DNA of 64,000 nucleotides from an uncultured Candidatus Saccharibacteria bacterium. GTDB lineage: Bacteria; Patescibacteriota; Minisyncoccia; Phycocordibacterales; Phycocordibacteraceae. The position numbers were made by a program, and so were the translations under genes. Of this stretch, positions 2,231 through 58,775 are shown in pieces. Within the stretch, counting starts at the first letter, position 1. Every line of letters begins with the position of its first letter. The notes beneath the pieces were generated by a model. It did no database searches and was not told the DNA's origin. It was given only the letters and a program-made list of their open reading frames with translations. The stretch spans positions 363,010-427,009 of the forward strand of contig CAZSKX010000001.1 of NCBI GenBank assembly GCA_964607655.1, given 5' to 3'.

Positions 2231-2898
2231 GTGCGTGGATCAGACTTCGGCCACTCGACGAGTCGCCCTGCTTTACGCTCCATCTGGTCTGCCTTACGCA
2301 GATACCGTCCGTGACCCTTAGGGACAATCTTCTCGTGTGGCAGCTGGTCCAGCCTGCGCGCGATCTCCCAGAGATCTTTCTTTGCGGTAATCCAATCTAC
2401 CCCGAGGGTACGTAGGTCAAACGGTTCACTATACGACCGCAGCGTTTTCTCACCCGTAGTGTTCATAAACCATTCGTGGAAGTACGAGAGCGCGAGTTCG
2501 CGCGCTGTGCGATAGATAGGATCGCGAAATCGGAGTGCCGCATGGTTGGTCTTACTGATGGCGCCCCAATATTCCCCGCGCTTGTAGAGCGCGATAACAT
2601 GATCGAAGTCCCCACTCCCAGGCTTCACCTTTAAGTCCATAATTACCGGCGGTTCACCGGCGATCCAGAGTGCCGTCGCCGCAAGAAGAGCTCCTTCGAT
2701 GCAGTGCGCCTTCCGCATCTTTAGCACCGCCTGAGGCGAACGGTGCGTCTCACCGTCTTTCTCCCAGTTCATCGCTAGCGCGTCGAGGAAGTCTTGGATC
2801 TTGATGGGCGTCGAGAGCTGCTTAAGCTTTTCATACTCACCGGGGGTAAGACCTGATTCGGCACAGGACAGACGCTTCATGCCTCTAGCATAACGCAA
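2227..2898 (-). CDS. Hypothetical protein (possible transglutaminase-like Cys-His-Asp fold)
   Basis: 223-aa ORF with a candidate C (AHCIEGALL)...H...D triad spacing. There are no TM segments. The alternative start MKRL is at 2880. Confidence 0.3.
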   Translation of the reverse strand: MRYARGMKRLSCAESGLTPGEYEKLKQLSTPIKIQDFLDALAMNWEKDGETHRSPQAVLKMRKAHCIEGALLAATALWIAGEPPVIMDLKVKPGSGDFDHVIALYKRGEYWGAISKTNHAALRFRDPIYRTARELALSYFHEWFMNTTGEKTLRSYSEPFDLRTLGVDWITAKKDLWEIARRLDQLPHEKIVPKGHGRYLRKADQMERKAGRLVEWPKSDPRT

Positions 2899-2930
2899 AA
2901 ACGCGGCGCCCTCGGGGCGCCGCGTTTTTA
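2896..2930. terminator. Bidirectional rho-independent terminator hairpin
   Basis: The sequence aaaaacgcggcgccc-tcgg-ggcgccgcgttttt has a GC stem flanked by an A-tract and a T-tract. Confidence 0.6.
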
Positions 2931-3635: not shown

Positions 3636-4205
3636 CTACTTCCCTTTTTCCCCCAGACGGGCGACCTTTCGAAACCAGCGCTCGCGAGTACGTTCTGAAG
3701 CCCGCTCCGAAGGGCCGAAAAGGGTCGACCGGGCCCGTACGCCGGCGAATCGGAGGATTGCCAACTCGAGCGTGGTGGTCGGCGACCCGTACATAAAGCG
3801 CAGGAGCCAAGGCGCGGTGTTGGCGGTAGTGATGATTCTACCGGTACGGCCACTCATGAGCTTTTTCCAGGTGAGCCCGTGGTCGGCGAAGTTAAATGCC
3901 ATGTGTGGTAGCCACGCACGGTCAAAAAGGCCTTTAAGCTGTGCGGGCATCGTGCTCCACCACGTGGGATACACAATCACCACATGATCAGCCCAGCTCA
4001 CATTCTCGAGGAATGCCTTCAGATCAGGCTCAAGCGGCTGAATCTTCTTATACCCCTCGTGGAGAATCGGGTCGAACGCCATCTCGCCAAGGTTCTGGCG
4101 ACGAACCTCATACCCAGCAGCACGCGCGTTGGTCTCGTAGCAGTCGGCAAGTGCTCCCGAGAGCGTCTCTCGGTCGCTGTGGCCGAGGAGGATGAAGATT
4201 TTCAT
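3636..4205 (-). CDS. Flavodoxin-like NAD(P)H dehydrogenase (quinone) family protein
   Basis: Starts MKIFILLGHSDRETLSG and contains VIVYPTWW, which matches the Flavodoxin_2 / NAD(P)H oxidoreductase pattern. The in-frame ORF extension upstream is probably spurious. Confidence 0.6.
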   Translation of the reverse strand: MKIFILLGHSDRETLSGALADCYETNARAAGYEVRRQNLGEMAFDPILHEGYKKIQPLEPDLKAFLENVSWADHVVIVYPTWWSTMPAQLKGLFDRAWLPHMAFNFADHGLTWKKLMSGRTGRIITTANTAPWLLRFMYGSPTTTLELAILRFAGVRARSTLFGPSERASERTRERWFRKVARLGEKGK

Positions 4206-21309: not shown

Positions 21310-21324
21310 CAACACTCCCCTCGT

Positions 21325-21374
21325 GACCACGAACCTTCCCGGTTCGTGGTCACGGCGGCGGGGTGTTTTTGTTT
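21325..21374 (+). terminator. Terminator-repeat family copy
   Basis: Perfect 11-bp stem gaccacgaacc/ggttcgtggtc + acggcggcggggtg + T-tract. Confidence 0.65.
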
Positions 21375-22139: not shown

Positions 22140-22305
22140 CCTTCAACCAGGTTCACAAAGGGCGGCGTTCGAAAGAACGCCGCCCTTTTCCTTTTCATAC
22201 ATATTTGCTATAGTTGACCCGTTGCGTGCGGGCATTAGTTGAGGAATAACCCTCCCAAGCGAAAGCGACGGACACCCTCGGCGAATCCAGCACTGCTTTT
22301 ATAGA

Positions 22306-23430: not shown

Positions 23431-23522
23431 GAACTCAAATCATGTCTGACACGCCCGCGGCTCTGTGAGCCGCGGGCGTGTTATCGTATGGCAAGAACGC
23501 CAAACGATACGGAGGATAACCA

Positions 23523-34708: not shown

Positions 34709-34745
34709 AAAAGGCCCGCTGCAGACGCAGCGGGCCTTTGTTCAT
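34709..34745. terminator. Bidirectional terminator hairpin
   Basis: aaaggcccgctgc-agac-gcagcgggccttt flanked by A- and T-tracts between convergent genes. Confidence 0.65.
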
Positions 34746-35797: not shown

Positions 35798-35845
35798 AAG
35801 CCCCGAGATTGTTCGTCCTAGGACGAACAATCTCGGGGCTTTTTC
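35798..35845. terminator. Bidirectional terminator (perfect 20-bp stem)
   Basis: agccccgagattgttcgtcc-tagg-ggacgaacaatctcggggct + ttttt. Confidence 0.75.
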
Positions 35846-39432: not shown

Positions 39433-39507
39433 CATGCCCCTATTGTACTCCTCGCGCAAGAGCGGGCGAGCTCATGTGAGCTCGCCCGCTCTTACTACTA
39501 CAACCGT

Positions 39508-40248
39508 TTACGGTCGCTTTGCGAAGCCCTCAAGCGCCTTAATCACCTCAACGGGGATCATATATACGACCGTATTGCTCTGGTCTGAAGACATGTCGTT
39601 GACCGACTGGAGAGTGCGCAGATGGAGCGCGCCTGGTGTCGCTGAGAGCATCGCTGCGGCCTTTGCGAGGTTCTCAGATGCCGCGAGCTCGCCCTCAGAA
39701 TTAATAATCACCGCGCGCTTCTCGCGTTCAGCCTCGGCTTGTTTACCGATCGTGCGCTCGAGCTCCGGAGGGAGACTCACATCCTTCAGCTCGACATTCT
39801 GCACTTTGAGCCCCCAAATATCCGTCTCTCGATCGACGGTCTCACGGATCCGGTCGGCGATCTTATCTCGACCCGAAAGCAGCTCGTCGAGGGTCACCTC
39901 GCCGACAATGTTGCGCATCGTGGTCTGGGCATACTGCGAGATCGCATGTTTAAAATCTTCTACTTCGATCACGGCCTTCCCCGCATCGCTCACGCGGTAG
40001 TAGATCACCGCATTCACGCGGACCGACACGTTGTCCCGCGTGATCGCGTTTTGGTCGGGAACATCGACCGCCTTGGTGCGTATATCAACCTTCTGATACG
40101 TCTGAATCACCGGCCAGACCATCCGCCATCCGGGCTCCATAATCGACGAGAATTTACCAAAAGTGAATCTCACTCCGCGCTCGTATTGGTTAATCTGTCG
40201 GATACTCCCAATAATGAGCACGATCACTATAACAACCGTAGCTACCAA
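39508..40248 (-). CDS. SPFH/Band-7 (stomatin/HflC-like) membrane protein
   Basis: N-terminal TM followed by a band-7 domain (VDIRTKAVDVPDQNAITRDNVSVRV). Confidence 0.75.
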   Translation of the reverse strand: MVATVVIVIVLIIGSIRQINQYERGVRFTFGKFSSIMEPGWRMVWPVIQTYQKVDIRTKAVDVPDQNAITRDNVSVRVNAVIYYRVSDAGKAVIEVEDFKHAISQYAQTTMRNIVGEVTLDELLSGRDKIADRIRETVDRETDIWGLKVQNVELKDVSLPPELERTIGKQAEAEREKRAVIINSEGELAASENLAKAAAMLSATPGALHLRTLQSVNDMSSDQSNTVVYMIPVEVIKALEGFAKRP

Positions 40249-40299: not shown

Positions 40300-41529
40300 C
40301 TATTCTCGCGAGAGTTTGTAGACGACGCCTGCGGCGTCGTCGCTGATGTAGGCCACCCCGCCCGGGAAGGTCTTGATGTCGACCGGGCGGCCGAGCTTGG
40401 TCCCCTCCGCGGTCAGCCAGCCAGTGATGAAGTCGTGCGTACCCTGGTAACGGCCCTGCGCGTCGAGCGCGACGCGCACGATCTTGTACCCTACCGGCAC
40501 ACTGCGATTCCACGAGCCGTGGAGCGCGACTAAGGCGTCATACCAGTATTCCTCGGGCCAGCCCTCTTCGGGGACAATGGCGAGGCCGAGCGGCGCCGAG
40601 TGAGCCTGTAGGTCGACAAACGAAGGCGCTTCAAAGGGCTCCATGCAGGGGTTACGGATGTACGTATTTTTATCAAACTCAGTGTCGTGGATATTTTTCC
40701 CATAGCAGACCGGCCAGCCATAGTTCTTACCCTTCTCGATAATGTTTAGCTCATCGGGCGGTGTGTCGTCGCCGAGCCCGTCGCGGCCCATCTCGGTCGC
40801 GAAGACGCGCCCGTCGACGGGGCTCATCTCCATAAACACCGAATTACGCAGCCCCTTCGCATACTCCATCAGTGTGCCTGTCTTGGTGTCGTAGGCCATG
40901 ATCCGCCCGCGCTGCGAGTCGCTCTCGTTGCATACGTTACATGACGAGCCGACCGAGACGAGCAAAATGTTTTCTTGAGGCGAGGGCAAGAAGAGGAGCG
41001 TGCGAGAGGTGTGACGATCGGTCCTGCTCGCCTCGAGGTCGGCGAGCTTGGTGTAGCCGCTCACTGTCCCTGCCTCAGGGTCATAGGTGTAGCGCCCGAG
41101 GCGGCTATGCTCGGCGAGGTAGAGGTAACACGGGAGGCCACGATCATCCTGCGGACAATCGAACGCGAGGCCGTGCGGGTTATCGAGCCCTTCAGCGAGC
41201 GTCGAGCGCTCCTCGGCCGCTCCGTCGCCGTCTCGGTCACGGAGCGTCGTCACCTTACCCTCTTTCATCTGGCTCACGAGCATCCGCCCGGCTGGGTCGA
41301 GCGCGAGGACGCGAGCGCTCGTTACCCCGCTCGCATAGACGGAGATTTTAAAGCCTTTAGGTACGGTGAGTCGTGGCGTGATCGTGTCTTCGGGCGCACT
41401 CTCTACTCCGCCATCCATCCACGGTATCGCCACCGCGCCAATATACTTCTCCTTAACCACCCATAGCGCAGCCACGATCAGCACCAGCACACCGGCAGTA
41501 ATGAGGAGTTTTTTAGTCATGTTCTTCAT
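40300..41529 (-). CDS. PQQ-dependent soluble sugar (glucose/sorbosone) dehydrogenase-like beta-propeller
   Basis: Signal peptide and GxxxG/NYGWP-like propeller blades (KGKNYGWPVCYG). Start set at MKNMTKK because the longer ORF runs into the low-GC island. Confidence 0.6.
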   Translation of the reverse strand: MKNMTKKLLITAGVLVLIVAALWVVKEKYIGAVAIPWMDGGVESAPEDTITPRLTVPKGFKISVYASGVTSARVLALDPAGRMLVSQMKEGKVTTLRDRDGDGAAEERSTLAEGLDNPHGLAFDCPQDDRGLPCYLYLAEHSRLGRYTYDPEAGTVSGYTKLADLEASRTDRHTSRTLLFLPSPQENILLVSVGSSCNVCNESDSQRGRIMAYDTKTGTLMEYAKGLRNSVFMEMSPVDGRVFATEMGRDGLGDDTPPDELNIIEKGKNYGWPVCYGKNIHDTEFDKNTYIRNPCMEPFEAPSFVDLQAHSAPLGLAIVPEEGWPEEYWYDALVALHGSWNRSVPVGYKIVRVALDAQGRYQGTHDFITGWLTAEGTKLGRPVDIKTFPGGVAYISDDAAGVVYKLSRE

Positions 41530-41688
41530 GCTCTGATTGTACTCTATTGTCTTTGAAACGCGCTTCTTTTTCTGTTCTGCGATATAATTACAGAGCAATT
41601 CTATGATTTCTCTCAAATCATCAACTGTAATTTTTTCAAAAGTATTGCTACTTTCAGAACTTTGTTGCTTAATGTCATTGACAACGCA

Positions 41689-41738
41689 ATTCGGTGATGC
41701 GAAAATGCCCTCAACGGGCATTTTCGCATCACCGAATG
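41689..41738. repeat. Perfect 22-bp inverted repeat (attcggtgatgcgaaaatgccc / gggcattttcgcatcaccgaat) with a 6-nt loop
   Basis: Read directly from the sequence; lies in AT-rich DNA at the left edge of the low-GC island and overlaps a TTGACA-17-GAAAAT promoter-like element. Confidence 0.8.
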
Positions 41739-41858
41739 CGATTTCCCCACCTCATTGATTTTTCATAAAAACTCCTATATAATCAACTTTAAGAAGTAAG
41801 ACCTCTCGTGTTGGGGTACCGAATGGCGCCCCGTCAAAACGAGGGGCTTTCTTATTTT

Positions 41859-42488
41859 TTAGGCAAAAAGTGGCTTCTCATCGACAATCTTATCCTTGAT
41901 CAGCTCGTAGTATTGGTAGTCGTTGTGCTCGTATTTCCTGAAAATTGCCCACGAAATAAAGTCGACCGCTTGAAGTGACTTGTTCTCGTGCGAAGCGTGT
42001 AACTCTACTTTGAATACACCGTCTCGGCGATTACTCATTTCTGTACATAAATACGTTACAAAATTTTCCTTCAGCCGCTTCTTGGTGTCCTTCCGGTCGA
42101 TGTAGAGTTCGATCGATTCCTGTACACTCAACGCATCACTCTTATGGAGCCGGTCTAAGAGGATGTTCGCGGTGTAATTATAGAGCACGTTCTTTTGACT
42201 CTGTAGATTCGTATAGACCTTTTCCTTGTTCAAGACAATCGTTTGCACCTTGAGATCCGGGATCTCACTCAACTTCTGTAATAATCTCTTGCGTGTTATC
42301 TCGTCAGCCCCGTACGCATGCAGCTCCCCCAAGCGCTTATGCTTCTTCTTTAGCGTGCGCCAGACCTTCTTGACAGCCCGCTCAAGCGCACGCTCGTCGG
42401 CGACGATAGCAATGGTAAAGAGAAACCATTTGCTCGATCCTTTCTTAAACCCCAAATCCCCGCTCTCATCAAGAAAGACGTAGGCCAT
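41859..42488 (-). CDS. DUF3800-family protein
   Basis: N-terminal MAYVFLDESGD, the hallmark of DUF3800; the ATG overlaps the upstream stop (TAAtATG). Confidence 0.6.
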   Translation of the reverse strand: MAYVFLDESGDLGFKKGSSKWFLFTIAIVADERALERAVKKVWRTLKKKHKRLGELHAYGADEITRKRLLQKLSEIPDLKVQTIVLNKEKVYTNLQSQKNVLYNYTANILLDRLHKSDALSVQESIELYIDRKDTKKRLKENFVTYLCTEMSNRRDGVFKVELHASHENKSLQAVDFISWAIFRKYEHNDYQYYELIKDKIVDEKPLFA

Positions 42489-42489
42489 A

Positions 42490-43653
42490 TTACCGATTCC
42501 CCTTCGCTCGGTTGTGTGTTTTGCAGAGCATTTGACAGTTTGCCGCATCGGTCGCTCCCCCCTTACTCCAAGCAGCCACGTGATCGGCATCCATATCGGA
42601 CAAACTCCAGATCTTCTCCTTGTTGGCGTCATGCCCAATGGCGCACAAGGGACAATTTGATTCACTTTTTTCTTTCGCCGCTGCGGTCTGAGCCTCATAA
42701 ACTGAGCGTTTAGTCGCATCGTCAAACACGCGCACGTCCAACAACTTCGTGTCCACTTCGCCTCCTAATACATACTCGAAGATCCCTCGTCGGTTCTTGA
42801 CGTGCGCGTCTCCATAAAGACGCTGCACCGCGGCAGAAATTACCGCGGGATCGTAAGTTTGCGCATGGTACGTCTTGTACAAACGATTCCATTCCAGCCC
42901 CTTCATTTCGCTTTCGACATCAATGAAAATTGACGACACCCAATCAATGACTTTGTTGAAGTGATTTTTCAACTCAGTGATATCCGAATCCTGACGGTGC
43001 TTACTCATGTAGTTATCGATTGCCCCATCAGACACCCAGTCAAGCGCATGCTCCAGAAAAGCTTGGCGCTTGATATCACCAGAGACGTAGGCACTCCACT
43101 TCTGCACATTCGCATTTTGGCTATTACTAAACTCCTCACGCGCACGAGTCACAAAAGGCCCGGAGTAGACCGCGTTCAAAATCTCCTGCTCGGTTAGCGG
43201 CACACCCGCAATGTTGATCGTCTTGAACCAATCCTTGATCTCTGGCTCTTCGCCCTCGCATATGTAGATGAGCAACTTCGTATTCAAGATCTTCTCGCGC
43301 TGCACATCGGCCATCCCGCTATAGTATTGTTCGTGACCATTCTGGTCCCTTACCGCAAACAAACCGGTCACAAATCGACCAATACTAGTGATACGCTGCT
43401 GACCGTCGAGGACTTCAAACTTTTCGTTGCCCACCTGATTGAAATACATCACTCCGATTGGATAACCTTTCACAATGGAGTCGATTACTGCCACGTCACG
43501 CCTTCCGTCCGCGTATATGTAATTACGTTGGTACTCAGGCTGGATAGTAAGCGTACCTGATAGACCAAACAGACCCTTGCCTTCAAATGCATTGTATTCA
43601 AAACCGGCGACAACGTCGCGAATGGTGATGTCAGTTTTTAGTGCAGTTTTCAT
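42490..43653 (-). CDS. ParB-like/DUF262 nuclease-domain protein with C-terminal HNH endonuclease domain (GmrSD-like architecture)
   Basis: VLDGQQR (DUF262 signature) N-terminally; CPLC...DADHV...N...CKTHN (HNH) C-terminally; translationally coupled to both neighbours. Confidence 0.7.
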
Positions 43654-43654
43654 A

Positions 43655-44809
43655 TTATTTCTTCTTGTGCTTTATAAAAATTCTCTTGAAGGCCATTTTT
43701 GCAATGCCATTGTCGTAATAGCCTGCAGTTGGGTTGCCTTCCTTATACGCCCCCGTTCCACCTGCTTTATAGTAATCATCGACGAACTTCTTTGTTAGCC
43801 CTGGTGTCCGTTTGAACTCATCACCAACAAGTCCGTTATCGTTTGTGCCCAGGATCTCAAACTGTTCCGGTGAATACTTGTCTAGGAAGCTAATCGGCAC
43901 ACCCATTGCCCCATCGTAATCACTCGGTATGGCATCTGTAAATGGCACCTCGATTGCGTCGTAATTGTCATATTTATCGTAATCGGCCTTGTCTTTCATC
44001 TTTTTGTTAAATCTAAAATTGTCAGAATATGTCATAAGACTAAGCGGTCGGTGACGGCGACCATGATCAAGATTGGTAAACCAGCATGTGTTACCCATTT
44101 TCTGTTCGGACTTATCTGGTCTCACATATGTTTTTGCACCACTCACAACCCCCAACCACACCTTGTTCATCTTTATCAAAGGAAAAATTTCTTTATAAGT
44201 TATGGCATTCATGCTGCCAAGTATCAGAAATTGTTTGTTGTGCTCCATGAGCTGGGCCACATAAGGCCGAAACAGGCTAAATGGAGGATTGGTGACTACA
44301 ATGTCGGACTCTTTAAGCAGCTCGACGCATTCAGGACTTCGAAAGTCGCCATCGCCCTCTAGCGGCGACCACTCGTTATTTTTATTTTCCTTCAATTGCT
44401 GCGAAATATCTTTCAGCGTGAAGGAGCCATCCCCGTCCACATCGCCAACTTCGTTAATGATAAATTTGTTGGCCGTAATCTTCGGTCGGCCTTTGACAGG
44501 CTCGAGTGTCACATCGTCGCCAAATAGCCCGAGCTGAGTATTCGCAACAGGCGAGGGCTTGTAGCTCGTGGTAATAAGCCGCTTTAGACCGAGGCGTTTG
44601 AAATTAAGCACGAAGTAGCGGAAGAAGTTACTCTCGAACGGATCGTCGCAATTGCAGTAGACAATCTTATCCTTAAAAGTGTCGCGGTCGTACTCCAGAT
44701 AGGCCTCAATCTCTTTTTGAATATCGCTGTACTGCGTATAGAACTCGTCATTCTTTGCCTTTTTGGCATTTGTGAGATTGCTGTTCGCCATTACGCCAAA
44801 TAATCCCAC
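43655..44809 (-). CDS. EcoRI-family N6-adenine DNA methyltransferase
   Basis: N-terminal NDEFYTQ...VYCNCDDPF and the catalytic TNPPF (motif IV of m6A MTases); GTG start (an ATG alternative is at 44791). Confidence 0.65.
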
Positions 44810-44841
44810 ATTTTCTTCATTTTTGGAATGCGCGCAGAGGG

Positions 44842-45687
44842 GTGGCGGGCGCGAGCTATACTAGAGCCATGTCTACGCGCTCTAAGATCGGTATCGGCTT
44901 ATTAGCAGCACTCCTCCTCGCCCTCGGCGGCTACTACGCGCTCTACGAGACCGAGCTCGAGGAGACGGCGCTCGAGGGTCTCTATGGTAGCGAGGAGTGT
45001 ACCGTGGCGGGGATCAACGCCCACGGCGACTTCGTCACGTATGCCTCTGCGTACGACTCGGTAGCTGAAGCGGCGCTTAACGAAGCGCCGTCTGAAGAGA
45101 TCATCGGCGCGATAAACGCCGCCGAGAGGGACGAGAGCATCAAAGGTATCCTGCTCGATATCGACTCGTACGGCGGGATGCCGGTGGCCGGAGAAGAAGT
45201 GGCTAATGCGCTACGCGCGACTAAGAAGCCGACCGTCGCGCTTATCCGCGGCGCGGGCGCCTCGGCCGCGTACTGGGCGGCGAGCGGCGCCGACCACATC
45301 GTCGCCTCTGCCCTCTCAGACGTCGGCAGTATCGGCGCCACCTACTCGTACACCGACGCCGCGAAGTACAACCAGGAGCAGGGCTACACCTTCAACCAGC
45401 TCTCGACGGGTATCTATAAAGATGCGGGTAACCCCGATAAGCCGCTGACCGCTACCGAGCGCGCGCTCGTGATGCGCGATCTCGAGATTATTAAAAATAA
45501 GTTTGTCGCTACTGTCGCCGCTAATCGCGACCTGAGCATCGCCGCAGTCGAGGCGCTCGCCGACGGCTCCACGATGCTCGGCGAGGCCGCGCTTAAGGCG
45601 GGGCTCGTCGACGAGATCGGCAGCTACGAGGAGGCGAAGGCCTACCTCGCGCGCGAGACGGCCGCTCCCGCCGAAGTGTGTTGGTAA
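44842..45687 (+). CDS. sppA: Signal peptide peptidase SppA (S49, 36K type)
   Basis: N-terminal TM, catalytic Ser region GAGASAAYW and Lys region downstream. Confidence 0.75.
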   Translation: MAGASYTRAMSTRSKIGIGLLAALLLALGGYYALYETELEETALEGLYGSEECTVAGINAHGDFVTYASAYDSVAEAALNEAPSEEIIGAINAAERDESIKGILLDIDSYGGMPVAGEEVANALRATKKPTVALIRGAGASAAYWAASGADHIVASALSDVGSIGATYSYTDAAKYNQEQGYTFNQLSTGIYKDAGNPDKPLTATERALVMRDLEIIKNKFVATVAANRDLSIAAVEALADGSTMLGEAALKAGLVDEIGSYEEAKAYLARETAAPAEVCW

Positions 45688-58714: not shown

Positions 58715-58775
58715 GGAACCGTTTCAGCGCAAAGCCGGGGGACACCTGTCCCCCGGCTTTTTCAATTTCTTTCTC

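What the first reader, a model, noticed from the sequence alone, without database searches (positions are those of the whole stretch)
41689..41738. Perfect 22-bp inverted repeat at the island border, overlapping a promoter-like element antisense to the island operon
The two arms, attcggtgatgcgaaaatgccc and gggcattttcgcatcaccgaat, are exact with a 6-nt spacer, which is unusually long for a terminator. A TTGACA-17-GAAAAT element sits just upstream on the plus strand, pointing antisense into the DUF3800 gene. This could be a protein-binding operator, an integration or recombination site, or a structured RNA at the island boundary.
Basis: seen in the sequence. Interest (0 to 1): 0.5.

Follow-up and report, generated by a model that had tools for sequence, protein, structure and literature searches.

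The report
Hairpin locking a small gene's start
The perfect 22-bp inverted repeat is a conserved stem-loop that buries the ribosome-binding region and start codon of an unannotated small gene, the last gene of a restriction-modification/DUF3800 defence island in a Patescibacteria genome.

Summary
The repeat is real: arms 41689-41710 and 41716-41737, 22/22 complementary. The spacer is 5 nt, not 6. It has no other copy in the window, in 185,579 species genomes or in viral contigs.

It is not a terminator, operator or attachment site. On the minus strand its 5' arm holds a GGUGAU motif, an AUG (41721) and a Pro codon. Its 3' arm is codons 4-11 of the same open frame.

That frame encodes a roughly 55-aa protein with two homologues among 1.8 billion representatives. 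Both homologues lie directly after a DUF3800 gene and its small RNA. One sits in the same methylase, GmrSD/HNH nuclease, DUF3800 island.

Both carry a perfect hairpin (21 and 19 bp) at the same place with different sequence. Eleven pair positions changed on both sides, and all 62 pairs are Watson-Crick.

Best reading: a translational lock on the island's fourth gene. Repression is inferred, not shown.

It could be a real antisense promoter.

In passing, I found a new DUF3800-associated small RNA (41790-60, plus strand) with strong covariation.

The parts
41689..41737 (-). Perfect stem-loop, read on the minus strand. The 5' arm is 41737-41716 (AUUCGGUGAUGCGAAAAUGCCC), the loop is 41715-41711 (GUUGA), and the 3' arm is 41710-41689. 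Four more pairs with one bulge extend it to 41685-41740.
   Evidence: -45.5 kcal/mol, z -11.4. Hairpins at the same position in L035 (3986-4029) and L034 (671-715) are shown.
41728..41733 (-). Purine-rich Shine-Dalgarno-like GGUGAU, at positions -12 to -7 from the AUG, inside the 5' arm.
   Evidence: Read from the sequence. L035 has GGUGUA at the same position. L034 has only CGGAUA, so the motif itself is weakly conserved. That it binds the ribosome is inferred.
41560..41721 (-). Small ORF, the island's fourth gene. AUG is at 41721-41719. Homology to the 55-aa P0362 and the 77-aa P0361 runs through codon 54. Its stop codon is missing, so the frame runs on into the GSDH start at 41532.
   Evidence: phmmer against 1.8e9 representatives gave E 6e-5 and 2.5e-4. 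The alignment starts at Met1. tblastn gave 1e-10 to 3e-11. The AUG is the first possible start in all three loci.
41678..41706 (+). It is the antisense of small-ORF codons 13-15 (-35 hexamer) and 6-7 (-10 hexamer). Its predicted start is about 41713, in the hairpin loop.
   Evidence: The same element is seen by reverse-complementing L035 (TTGACA-17-TAAAAT) and L034 (TTGACT-17-TAAAAT). Val14 is GTC in all three loci.
41755..41783 (+). Sigma-70-type promoter TTGATT-17-TATAAT of the DUF3800-associated small RNA.
   Evidence: A -35 and -10 at the same distance from the RNA occur in 15 other loci.
41790..41860 (+). Structured small RNA of about 70 nt, convergent with DUF3800. It has an outer helix, an inner hairpin with loop ACCGAAUGG, and a U-run that overlaps the DUF3800 stop codon.
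   Evidence: On alignment A5 (18 loci), 97.7% of cells are paired, 12 of 22 pairs have changes on both sides, and 0 of 500 shuffles reach the observed score. There is no Rfam match at E <= 10.
41859..42488 (-). DUF3800 gene (209 aa).
   Evidence: Pfam PF12686, 6.5e-18. PADLOC PDC-M04A, 1.8e-7. 1365 homologues, which the few source names given assign to Patescibacteria-type MAGs.
42490..43653 (-). GmrSD_N (DUF262) + HNH nuclease, the restriction enzyme of the island.
   Evidence: Pfam. PADLOC REase_II, 3.2e-87, full length.
43655..44791 (-). EcoRI-family adenine methyltransferase.
   Evidence: Pfam PF13651, 2.2e-119. PADLOC MTase_II, 6.3e-99.
40300..41532 (-). Host glucose/sorbosone dehydrogenase (GSDH) gene. 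A mechanical ORF call extends it to 41721 by fusing it with the small ORF.
   Evidence: Relatives start at the Met that corresponds to 41532/41523.

Best explanation
The inverted repeat is the DNA image of an mRNA stem-loop on the minus strand. The stem-loop pairs the last 16 nt of the 5'UTR (including a GGUGAU Shine-Dalgarno-like motif), the AUG and the second codon of a conserved roughly 55-aa ORF with codons 4-11 of that same ORF.

This ORF is the terminal, fourth gene of a mobile defence island: EcoRI-family methylase, GmrSD_N/HNH restriction nuclease, DUF3800, a convergent small RNA, then the small ORF.

A perfect 19-22-bp helix over the initiation region should keep the small ORF translationally silent unless the helix is cut, unwound or displaced.

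- **Shown:** the hairpin; its exact register on the start codon; the homology of the ORF; conservation of perfect pairing in three deeply diverged loci through coupled changes in UTR and coding arm.
- **Inferred:** that the element acts in RNA rather than DNA; that it represses translation; and what opens it.
- **Not known:** the transcription start. The -10-like boxes suggest the hairpin sits within about 0-10 nt of the mRNA 5' end.
For: **The ORF is real and homologous.**
- The AUG at 41721 lies in the 5' arm and the 3' arm is codons 4-11.
- The 63-aa translation finds exactly two relatives among 1.8e9 representatives, aligned from Met1.

**Context gives independent confirmation.**
- P0361 (locus L035) follows EcoRI_methylase, GmrSD_N+HNH and DUF3800 in the same order as the window.
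- P0362 (locus L034) follows a DUF3800 gene plus the small RNA.

**The hairpin is conserved in structure.**
- Both loci have a perfect hairpin in the same register on the AUG: 21 bp with loop 2, and 19 bp with loop 7. Energies are -33.7 kcal/mol each, z about -8.8.
- Eleven of 22 pair positions differ among the three loci, and all 62 pairs are Watson-Crick.
- Between the window and L035, five coupled changes include three synonymous codon changes matched by changes in the 5' arm (two in the UTR, one a synonymous change in the Pro codon).

**The loci are old relatives.** Amino-acid identity is 59% for the methylase, 70% for the nuclease, 46% for DUF3800 and 47% for the small ORF, so the perfection is not recent common ancestry.

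**The start codon is unambiguous.** An in-frame stop lies 5-10 codons upstream in each locus and no other start codon intervenes.
Against: - Only three loci are known.
- pN/pS outside the hairpin is 0.5-0.9 on 42 codons, a weak coding signature.
- AlphaFold gives only one confident helix, and no protein family matches.
- The complete absence of G.U pairs and mismatches is more typical of a DNA palindrome, or of arms homogenised by template switching, than of an RNA-only constraint.
- There are no transcript data and no mapped promoter for the small ORF.
- The Shine-Dalgarno-like motif is weak in L034.
- In the window the small ORF has lost its stop codon and may be decaying.
- Fifteen other DUF3800-small-RNA loci have neither the ORF nor a hairpin, so it is an accessory part of the module.
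Confidence: 0.62

Rival explanations
1. The hairpin is the lock of a type I toxin-antitoxin-like addiction cassette. The small ORF would be a toxic or growth-arresting effector. A promoter inside its 5' coding region would fire an antisense RNA from the loop across the ribosome-binding region and AUG. That RNA would run on into the DUF3800-associated small RNA and its terminator. This is a more specific version of the best explanation.
For: - The antisense promoter-like element is present in all three loci with an invariant 17-nt spacer and 10-11 of 12 consensus matches.
- Val14, which supplies the C of TTGAC, uses GTC in all three loci, although GTC is 13-32% of Val codons in the island genes.
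- The features fit this class: a small ORF, a buried initiation region, and a position at the end of a mobile defence island.
Against: - Both hexamers lie in conserved codons (Ile6-Phe/Leu7, Val14-Asn15). The -10 hexamer is also fixed by pairing with AAAAUG, so conservation may be a by-product.
- The protein has no hydrophobic segment like most type I toxins.
- The adjacent small RNA shows no complementarity to the mRNA above shuffled controls.
- There are no transcript or toxicity data.
Confidence: 0.2
2. It is a factor-independent terminator or insulator hairpin, like the other long perfect hairpins of this genome. It would stop read-through from the methylase-nuclease-DUF3800 operon before the host GSDH gene.
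For: - The window has 14 perfect hairpins of 12 bp or more, against none in shuffles. About half of them lie 2-35 nt past stop codons or between convergent genes.
- An equally long one (35798-35841) is conserved with a compensatory change in relative L030.
- The repeat lies downstream of the operon on the same strand.
Against: - No U-run follows it on either strand, and the terminator scan finds nothing. The same holds in L034 and L035.
- It lies 121 nt past the DUF3800 stop, with a whole small-RNA gene in between.
- In all three loci it sits on the start codon of a conserved ORF, not after a stop codon.
- Fifteen other DUF3800-small-RNA loci have no such hairpin.
Confidence: 0.08
3. It acts at the DNA level as a palindrome: a cruciform, a hairpin-forming site for a nuclease, nickase or recombinase, an operator for a dimeric regulator, or a palindrome kept perfect by template-switch correction with no function of its own.
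For: - All 62 pairs in three loci are strict Watson-Crick, with no G.U and no bulge. A DNA palindrome requires this; an RNA helix does not.
- It lies in a mobile island next to nuclease genes.
Against: - Its register on the AUG is identical in three deeply diverged loci, which a DNA-only role does not explain.
- The outer arm sequences differ, so no common protein recognition sequence exists beyond AAAATGCC/GGCATTTT, which coding constraints fix.
- No regulator or recombinase gene is in the island.
- There are no flanking repeats.
- It is not at the island junction.
- No other copies exist in 596 Gb of genomes or in viral contigs.
Confidence: 0.08

Closest known systems
SD/AUG-sequestering structures of type I toxin mRNAs (hok/sok, tisB/IstR-1, aapA1/IsoA1). 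Cited from my own knowledge, not tested here.
   Same: A small ORF of about 55 codons has its ribosome-binding region buried in a stable cis structure. It lies on a mobile, selfish-type element. A strong promoter-like element on the opposite strand sits inside the 5' end of the ORF, as with sok.
   Different: The protein is hydrophilic or amphipathic, with no membrane helix. The lock is a simple, perfect 19-22-bp local hairpin, not a long-range or metastable fold. No antisense transcript or toxicity is shown. The neighbouring small RNA is not complementary to the mRNA.
Translational operator or attenuator hairpins that contain the start codon (MS2/Q-beta replicase operator, ermC leader). Cited from my own knowledge.
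   Same: The hairpin includes the Shine-Dalgarno region and AUG of the regulated gene. Pairing is conserved by covariation.
   Different: Those stems are short (about 7-12 bp), imperfect, and opened or closed by a known partner: coat protein, or a ribosome stalled on a leader peptide. Here the stem is 19-22 perfect pairs at -34 to -45 kcal/mol. No partner is known, and short upstream ORFs are not consistently placed.
Intrinsic terminators of the same genome (for example 35798-35841, 39458-39493, 58731-58760)
   Same: Long, perfect, Watson-Crick-only hairpins in non-coding-looking DNA. Length is up to 22 bp, and pairing is maintained by compensatory change.
   Different: Those that read as terminators sit 2-35 nt past stop codons or between convergent genes. 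They are mostly 59-86% GC and often have A/T-run feet. This one is 49% GC, has no U-run, and sits on a start codon.
DUF3800-I to -XI RNA motifs (Weinberg et al. 2017, PMC5737381). This comparison is for the neighbouring small RNA, not for the repeat.
   Same: A structured RNA next to a DUF3800 gene, on the opposite strand, ending in an intrinsic terminator (for the published description; here).
   Different: No Rfam 15 family matches it even at E <= 10. In contrast, DUF3800-IX (RF02968) is found at another site in L002 at 59 bits. Its shape, one outer helix plus one inner hairpin, differs from the three-way DUF3800-IX consensus.

Membership tests
RBS/start-codon-sequestering mRNA hairpin (cis translational repressor) | Base-pairing covers the ribosome-binding region and/or the start codon of the downstream ORF. 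| tested here: met
   The 5' arm spans -16 to +5 relative to the A of AUG, and -15/-14 in L035/L034.
RBS/start-codon-sequestering mRNA hairpin (cis translational repressor) | Pairing is conserved across homologues through compensatory changes. | tested here: met
   Three loci, 11 of 22 positions changed on both sides, 62 of 62 pairs Watson-Crick. Each fold has z <= -8.6.
RBS/start-codon-sequestering mRNA hairpin (cis translational repressor) | The downstream frame is a genuine protein-coding gene. | tested here: inconclusive
   For: homologues at E 6e-5 and 2.5e-4 with matching genomic context, a frame open for at least 54 codons in AT-rich DNA in three loci, and a 3-nt indel. Against: pN/pS is 0.5-0.9 and no family matches.
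RBS/start-codon-sequestering mRNA hairpin (cis translational repressor) | Both arms are present in one transcript, and the stem lowers translation. | not testable with these tools
   No transcript or reporter data. Promoter positions are only consensus guesses (sequence).
Intrinsic (Rho-independent) terminator | A U-run immediately 3' of the stem. | tested here: not met
   The scan finds no terminator in 41000-42500. The tails are UUGCGUUGU on the minus strand and GCGAUUUCC on the plus strand. L034 and L035 also lack U-runs.
Intrinsic (Rho-independent) terminator | It lies at the 3' end of a transcription unit, just past a stop codon. | tested here: not met
   It is 121 nt past the DUF3800 stop, with a small-RNA gene in between, and it overlaps a conserved start codon.
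Type I toxin-antitoxin system | A small toxin ORF whose mRNA structure hides the initiation region. | tested here: met
   An ORF of about 55 codons with AUG and GGUGAU in a 22-bp stem.
Type I toxin-antitoxin system | An antisense or partly complementary small RNA is transcribed from the locus. | tested here: inconclusive
   An antisense promoter-like element is conserved in three loci, but coding constraints could explain it. The adjacent small RNA is not complementary above shuffled controls.
Type I toxin-antitoxin system | The toxin is a hydrophobic membrane peptide or is otherwise demonstrably toxic. | tested here: not met
   There is no hydrophobic segment. The model shows one amphipathic helix, residues 33-61. 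Toxicity cannot be tested here.
Palindromic operator of a dimeric regulator (for example the C-box of a restriction-modification controller protein) | Half-site sequence is conserved between related systems, and a cognate DNA-binding protein is encoded nearby. | tested here: not met
   The outer 10-12 bp of each arm differ between loci. No HTH or regulator domain occurs in the island proteins.
Island attachment or recombination site | It lies at the island-host junction, with a repeat at the other end and a recombinase gene. | tested here: not met
   The junction is near 41555-41560, 130 nt or more away. The only shared word between the two borders is one 8-mer. There is no recombinase.
Dispersed repeat (REP/MITE-like) | Multiple copies in the genome or in other genomes. 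| tested here: not met
   There is no other copy in the window at up to 3 mismatches. Viral contigs give none. 185,579 species genomes give one one-armed chance hit.
Rfam DUF3800 RNA motifs (for the neighbouring small RNA) | It scores above threshold with a DUF3800-I to -XI covariance model. | tested here: not met
   No DUF3800 family appears at E <= 10 in 41500-41900, nor at the homologous site in L002. The other 14 loci were scanned at gathering threshold only. The search does work: RF02968 is found elsewhere in L002.

The most novel reading that the evidence does not exclude
Patescibacteria restriction-modification/DUF3800 islands may end in a previously unseen addiction-type or abortive-infection-type cassette with three parts.

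1. A small effector gene whose ribosome-binding region and AUG are locked in a perfect 19-22-bp duplex.
2. An antisense promoter inside the gene that fires from the hairpin loop across the lock.
3. A new DUF3800-associated structured RNA into which that antisense transcript runs.

The RNase H-like DUF3800 protein, or RNase III, would act on these RNAs to release or destroy the locked message.
Probability: 0.2. Interest if true: 0.75.

Novelty: new variant of a known kind. Interest (0 to 1): 0.58.

Why it matters
- **Annotation.** The 473-aa GSDH call (40300-41721) is a fusion of a host gene with the stop-less last gene of an inserted island.
- **A hidden gene.** The finding reveals a conserved but unannotated fourth gene, with an unusually strong RNA lock, in restriction-modification/DUF3800 defence islands of uncultured Patescibacteria.
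- **DUF3800 RNAs.** It places that gene next to a new, well-supported DUF3800-associated small RNA that has its own promoter and terminator. What the DUF3800-linked RNAs do has been open since 2017 (PMC5737381).
- **Testability.** A compact module of nuclease, small RNA and locked small ORF gives a concrete system that can be tested in a heterologous host.

Tried and rejected
1. **Dispersed repeat or att site.** The arm is unique in the window and absent from viral contigs. Species genomes give one chance hit with a single arm inside a Christensenellaceae gene. There are no border repeats.
2. **Similarity of 41533-41870 to phages or plasmids.** The only hit is a 25-nt chance match to Riemerella phages.
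3. **Rfam.** The only hits are generic long-hairpin matches (miRNA precursors, AfaR), far below gathering scores.
4. **Terminator.** This was my working idea after seeing 14 long perfect hairpins in the window. I dropped it once the hairpin proved to sit on a conserved start codon.
5. **Part of the conserved DUF3800-small-RNA module.** It is not: 15 other loci have no perfect stem of 8 bp or more within 560 nt and no small-ORF homologue.
6. **Small RNA pairing with the small-ORF mRNA.** Duplex energies equal those of shuffles in all three loci. The shared 8-mer ACCGAATG between the RNA loop and the repeat arm is not kept in L034 or L035.
7. **Function of the small protein.** There is no Pfam, NCBIfam, PHROG or PADLOC family. 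AlphaFold gives a single helix, mean pLDDT 66. PDB hits are a short ankyrin-helix-like LEIxxxLLKY motif with no stretch passing on its own.
8. **More small-ORF loci.** None were found in viral contigs, phages or plasmids. The core pattern AAAATGCC..GGCATTTT picks up 120 or more unrelated hairpins in viral contigs with no ORF homologue.
9. **The source contig.** P0001 and P0241 are 100% identical to window proteins and lie on a 464,554-bp NCBI contig, but that contig could not be fetched.

Full report
**Observation.** The window has a perfect inverted repeat with arms at 41689-41710 and 41716-41737, 22 of 22 complementary, around a 5-nt spacer TCAAC. With one bulged A the stem extends four more pairs, to 41685-41740. 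As RNA it folds at -45.5 kcal/mol, z = -11.4 against shuffles. The 22-mer has no other copy in the window at up to 3 mismatches. A 20-mer of the arm is absent from viral contigs. In 185,579 species genomes it gives a single one-armed hit inside an unrelated gene.

**Setting.** All the relevant genes are on the minus strand:
- an EcoRI-family methyltransferase (44791-43655);
- a GmrSD_N+HNH protein (43653-42490) that PADLOC scores as a full-length type II restriction enzyme;
- a DUF3800 gene (42488-41859);
- a 326-bp gap that holds the repeat;
- a glucose/sorbosone dehydrogenase, GSDH (41532-40300).

The block from about 41.5 to 44.8 kb is 47-49% GC, in a genome of 55-63% GC. Protein matches whose sources name them are labelled Patescibacteria, Parcubacteria or Paceibacterota.

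The closest relatives of GSDH lack the island. In L031 (89% identity) and the syntenic L030 (84%), GSDH follows a host gene after a spacer of only 42-53 bp. Similarity to the window upstream of the GSDH ATG extends about 20 nt. The repeat therefore lies in inserted DNA. No repeats link the two island borders.

**First lead: a terminator.** The window holds 14 perfect hairpins with stems of 12 bp or more, against none in 20 shuffles. About half of them lie 2-35 nt past stop codons or between convergent genes. One, at 35798-35841, also has 22-nt arms. It is conserved in relative L030 with a compensatory A:T to G:C change. So 'too long for a terminator' is not an argument in this genome. Even so, this repeat has no U-run on either strand and is 121 nt from the nearest stop codon.

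**What lies between the repeat and DUF3800.** I compared loci encoding DUF3800 homologues. The roughly 70 nt after the stop codon are conserved in sequence. Beyond them, on the opposite strand, lie a -10 and a -35 box at fixed distances.
- In the window this is TTGATT-17-TATAAT (41755-41783, plus strand).
- It drives an RNA from about 41790 to the U-run at 41855-41860, which overlaps the DUF3800 stop.
- On 18 loci the proposed structure is 97.7% paired, and 12 of 22 pairs have changes on both sides. No shuffle out of 500 reaches the observed score, and slid controls pair at about 50%.
- No Rfam family matches it even at E <= 10. DUF3800-IX is detected elsewhere in L002, so the search works.

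This is a DUF3800-associated small RNA of the kind described by Weinberg et al. (PMC5737381), but it is not one of the models in Rfam. The repeat is not part of this conserved module. Fifteen other loci have no perfect stem of 8 bp or more within 560 nt of the DUF3800 stop.

**The decisive result.** On the minus strand a frame is open from the repeat into GSDH, about 76 codons in 26-38% GC DNA. I searched the 63 residues from the ATG at 41721 against 1.8 billion representatives. Exactly two proteins came back: P0361 (77 aa, E 6e-5) and P0362 (55 aa, E 2.5e-4). Both align from Met1.

Their genomic contexts confirm the homology independently.
- P0361 (locus L035) follows EcoRI_methylase, GmrSD_N+HNH and DUF3800 in the same order as the window.
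- P0362 (locus L034) follows a DUF3800 gene and the small RNA.

Both loci carry a perfect inverted repeat at the same place:
- L035 3986-4006/4009-4029, 21 nt, TTTGGTGTAGCTAAAATGCCT;
- L034 671-689/697-715, 19 nt, CTTCGGATAGTAAAATGCC.

Each folds at -33.7 kcal/mol, z about -8.8.

**Anatomy of the hairpin.** In all three loci the 5' arm consists of the last 14-16 nt of the 5'UTR, the ATG and part or all of the Pro codon. The 3' arm runs from the Gly codon (codon 4 or 5), or the base before it, into codon 10 or 11.
- Eleven of the 22 pair positions differ among the loci, and every one of the 62 pairs is Watson-Crick.
- Between the window and L035 there are five coupled changes. Three are synonymous changes in the coding arm (GAG/GAA, GCA/GCT, CCG/CCA), each matched by a change in the 5' arm: two in the UTR and one a synonymous change in the Pro codon. 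Two go with amino-acid changes (Phe/Leu, Ser/Thr).
- The islands are old relatives. Amino-acid identity is 59% for the methylase, 70% for the nuclease, 46% for DUF3800 and 47% for the small ORF. The perfection is therefore maintained, not inherited.
- The ATG is the first possible start in each locus, because an in-frame stop lies 5-10 codons upstream.

**Interpretation.** The repeat is most simply an mRNA stem-loop that buries the ribosome-binding region and start codon of the island's fourth gene. This is a translational lock. A DNA-only role would not explain the identical register on the AUG. An operator would not explain perfect pairing over 19-22 bp with divergent outer sequence and no regulator gene nearby. 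A terminator would not sit on a conserved start codon without a U-run.

Three things remain inferred:
- that both arms are transcribed together. The -10-like boxes 8-20 nt upstream of the stem would put the hairpin within about 0-10 nt of the 5' end (sequence);
- that it represses translation;
- what opens it.

The strict absence of G.U pairs is a caution. It would also fit a DNA palindrome, or arms homogenised by template switching.

Both hexamers of TTGACA-17-GAAAAT (plus strand) are the antisense of conserved small-ORF codons: Val13-Val14-Asn15 and Ile6-Phe7.
- The element recurs in L035 as TTGACA-17-TAAAAT and in L034 as TTGACT-17-TAAAAT.
- Val14 is GTC in all three, while GTC is 13-32% of Val codons in the island genes. 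This is a weak hint of selection at the nucleotide level.
- If the promoter is active, it would start in the loop and make an RNA antisense to the ribosome-binding region. That RNA would run on into the small RNA gene, which is a type I toxin-antitoxin-like layout.
- The protein is not hydrophobic, and the small RNA shows no complementarity to the mRNA above shuffles.

I give this more specific reading about 0.2.

**The island end.** Homology of the small ORF among the three loci stops at about codon 54. In L034 a stop follows at codon 56.
- In the window the frame continues in host-side sequence into the GSDH ATG.
- In L035 the frame continues into sequence not shared with the other two loci, which looks GC-rich by eye.

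In both island copies the border therefore appears to fall in the last codons of this gene. The mechanical 473-aa GSDH ORF (40300-41721) is a fusion artefact of that junction.

**The small protein.** It has no family in Pfam, NCBIfam, PHROGs or PADLOC. The model has only a C-terminal helix.

**Known kinds.** Hairpins that sequester the initiation region are well known. From my own knowledge, examples are type I toxin mRNAs, the MS2 operator and ermC attenuation. This one differs in four ways:
- its length and perfection;
- the covariation between a UTR and a coding arm;
- its place at the end of restriction-modification/DUF3800 islands of Patescibacteria;
- its position next to a new DUF3800-linked RNA.

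DUF3800 has been predicted to have an RNase H-like fold and has been linked to mobile elements, defence systems and non-coding RNAs (PMC10910872, PMC13594972).

**Verdict.** The element is a conserved start-codon hairpin of an unannotated small gene. It is a new variant of a known kind. Support comes from only three loci and there are no expression data.

Noticed in passing
window 41755-41860 (+); L002 4480-4545, L003 5185-5250, L005-L018, L022, L034 529-595, L035 3841-3905: This is a new DUF3800-associated small RNA of about 70 nt, convergent with the DUF3800 gene. It has its own sigma-70-type promoter and a U-run terminator that overlaps the DUF3800 stop codon. Across 18 loci, 97.7% of cells are paired and 12 of 22 pairs have compensatory changes. 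No Rfam 15 family matches at E <= 10.
   Followed up: yes
window 40300-41721 (-): The longest ORF call for GSDH (473 aa) is an in-frame fusion. The island's small ORF has lost its stop codon and runs into the host gene. Relatives start GSDH at the Met that corresponds to 41532/41523.
   Followed up: partly
window 2897-2929, 21322-21354, 22157-22188, 23449-23481, 34710-34739, 35798-35841, 39458-39493, 58731-58760 and others: The window has 14 perfect hairpins with stems of 12-22 bp, against none in shuffles. About half lie just past stop codons or between convergent genes. The hairpin at 35798-35841 (22-nt arms, no loop) is conserved in relative L030 (6430-6473) with a compensatory change. Long, Watson-Crick-only terminator hairpins appear to be a habit of this lineage.
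   Followed up: partly
window 44792-44868; L033 1-6000; contig of P0243: The flank upstream of the S49 (SppA/NfeD-like) peptidase gene looks like a hot spot for defence genes. The window has the type II restriction-modification/DUF3800 island there. A relative from the same sample as L030 has a type I/ISP-like system instead: N6_Mtase/Eco57I, a ResIII helicase, TPR and DUF4357. Another relative has an NYN-domain gene there.
   Followed up: partly
L034 ~635-643, L035 ~3945-3953, L017/L018/L022 upstream of the small-RNA -35; window 41741-41752: The 9-mer TTATCCACA, which is the consensus DnaA box, lies next to the small-RNA promoter in several loci, in either orientation. L017 has TTTTCCACA. The window and L015 have GGTGGGGA(A/T)AA at the corresponding place. 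In L034 and L035 it could also supply a TCCACA -35 for the small ORF.
   Followed up: no
L002 1107-1170 (-): A DUF3800-IX RNA (RF02968, 59 bits) sits next to a second, weakly scoring DUF3800-like gene (469-804). This is on the same contig as a DUF3800 gene that carries the new small RNA, so two different DUF3800-RNA pairs occur in one genome.
   Followed up: no
window 41533-41550 (-); L030 1345-1371; L031 293-319: A -10-like box (TACAAT in the window, TGCTACGAT in relatives) ends 6 nt before the GSDH ATG in all three genomes, with no Shine-Dalgarno sequence. This suggests a leaderless mRNA. The island insertion removed the TG extension.
   Followed up: no
window 41757-41785: The small-RNA promoter region is partly palindromic (TTGATT...AATCAA). 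The minus strand therefore reads TTGATT-17-AAAAAT over the same 30 bp. This is a possible face-to-face promoter for the small ORF that would compete with the small-RNA promoter. It scores 8 of 12, below the scan threshold.
   Followed up: no
window 39508-40248 and 44869-45687: An SPFH/Band-7 gene and an S49/NfeD-like peptidase gene are usually partners. Here GSDH and the island separate them. The SPFH gene is absent at this position in relatives L030 and L031.
   Followed up: no
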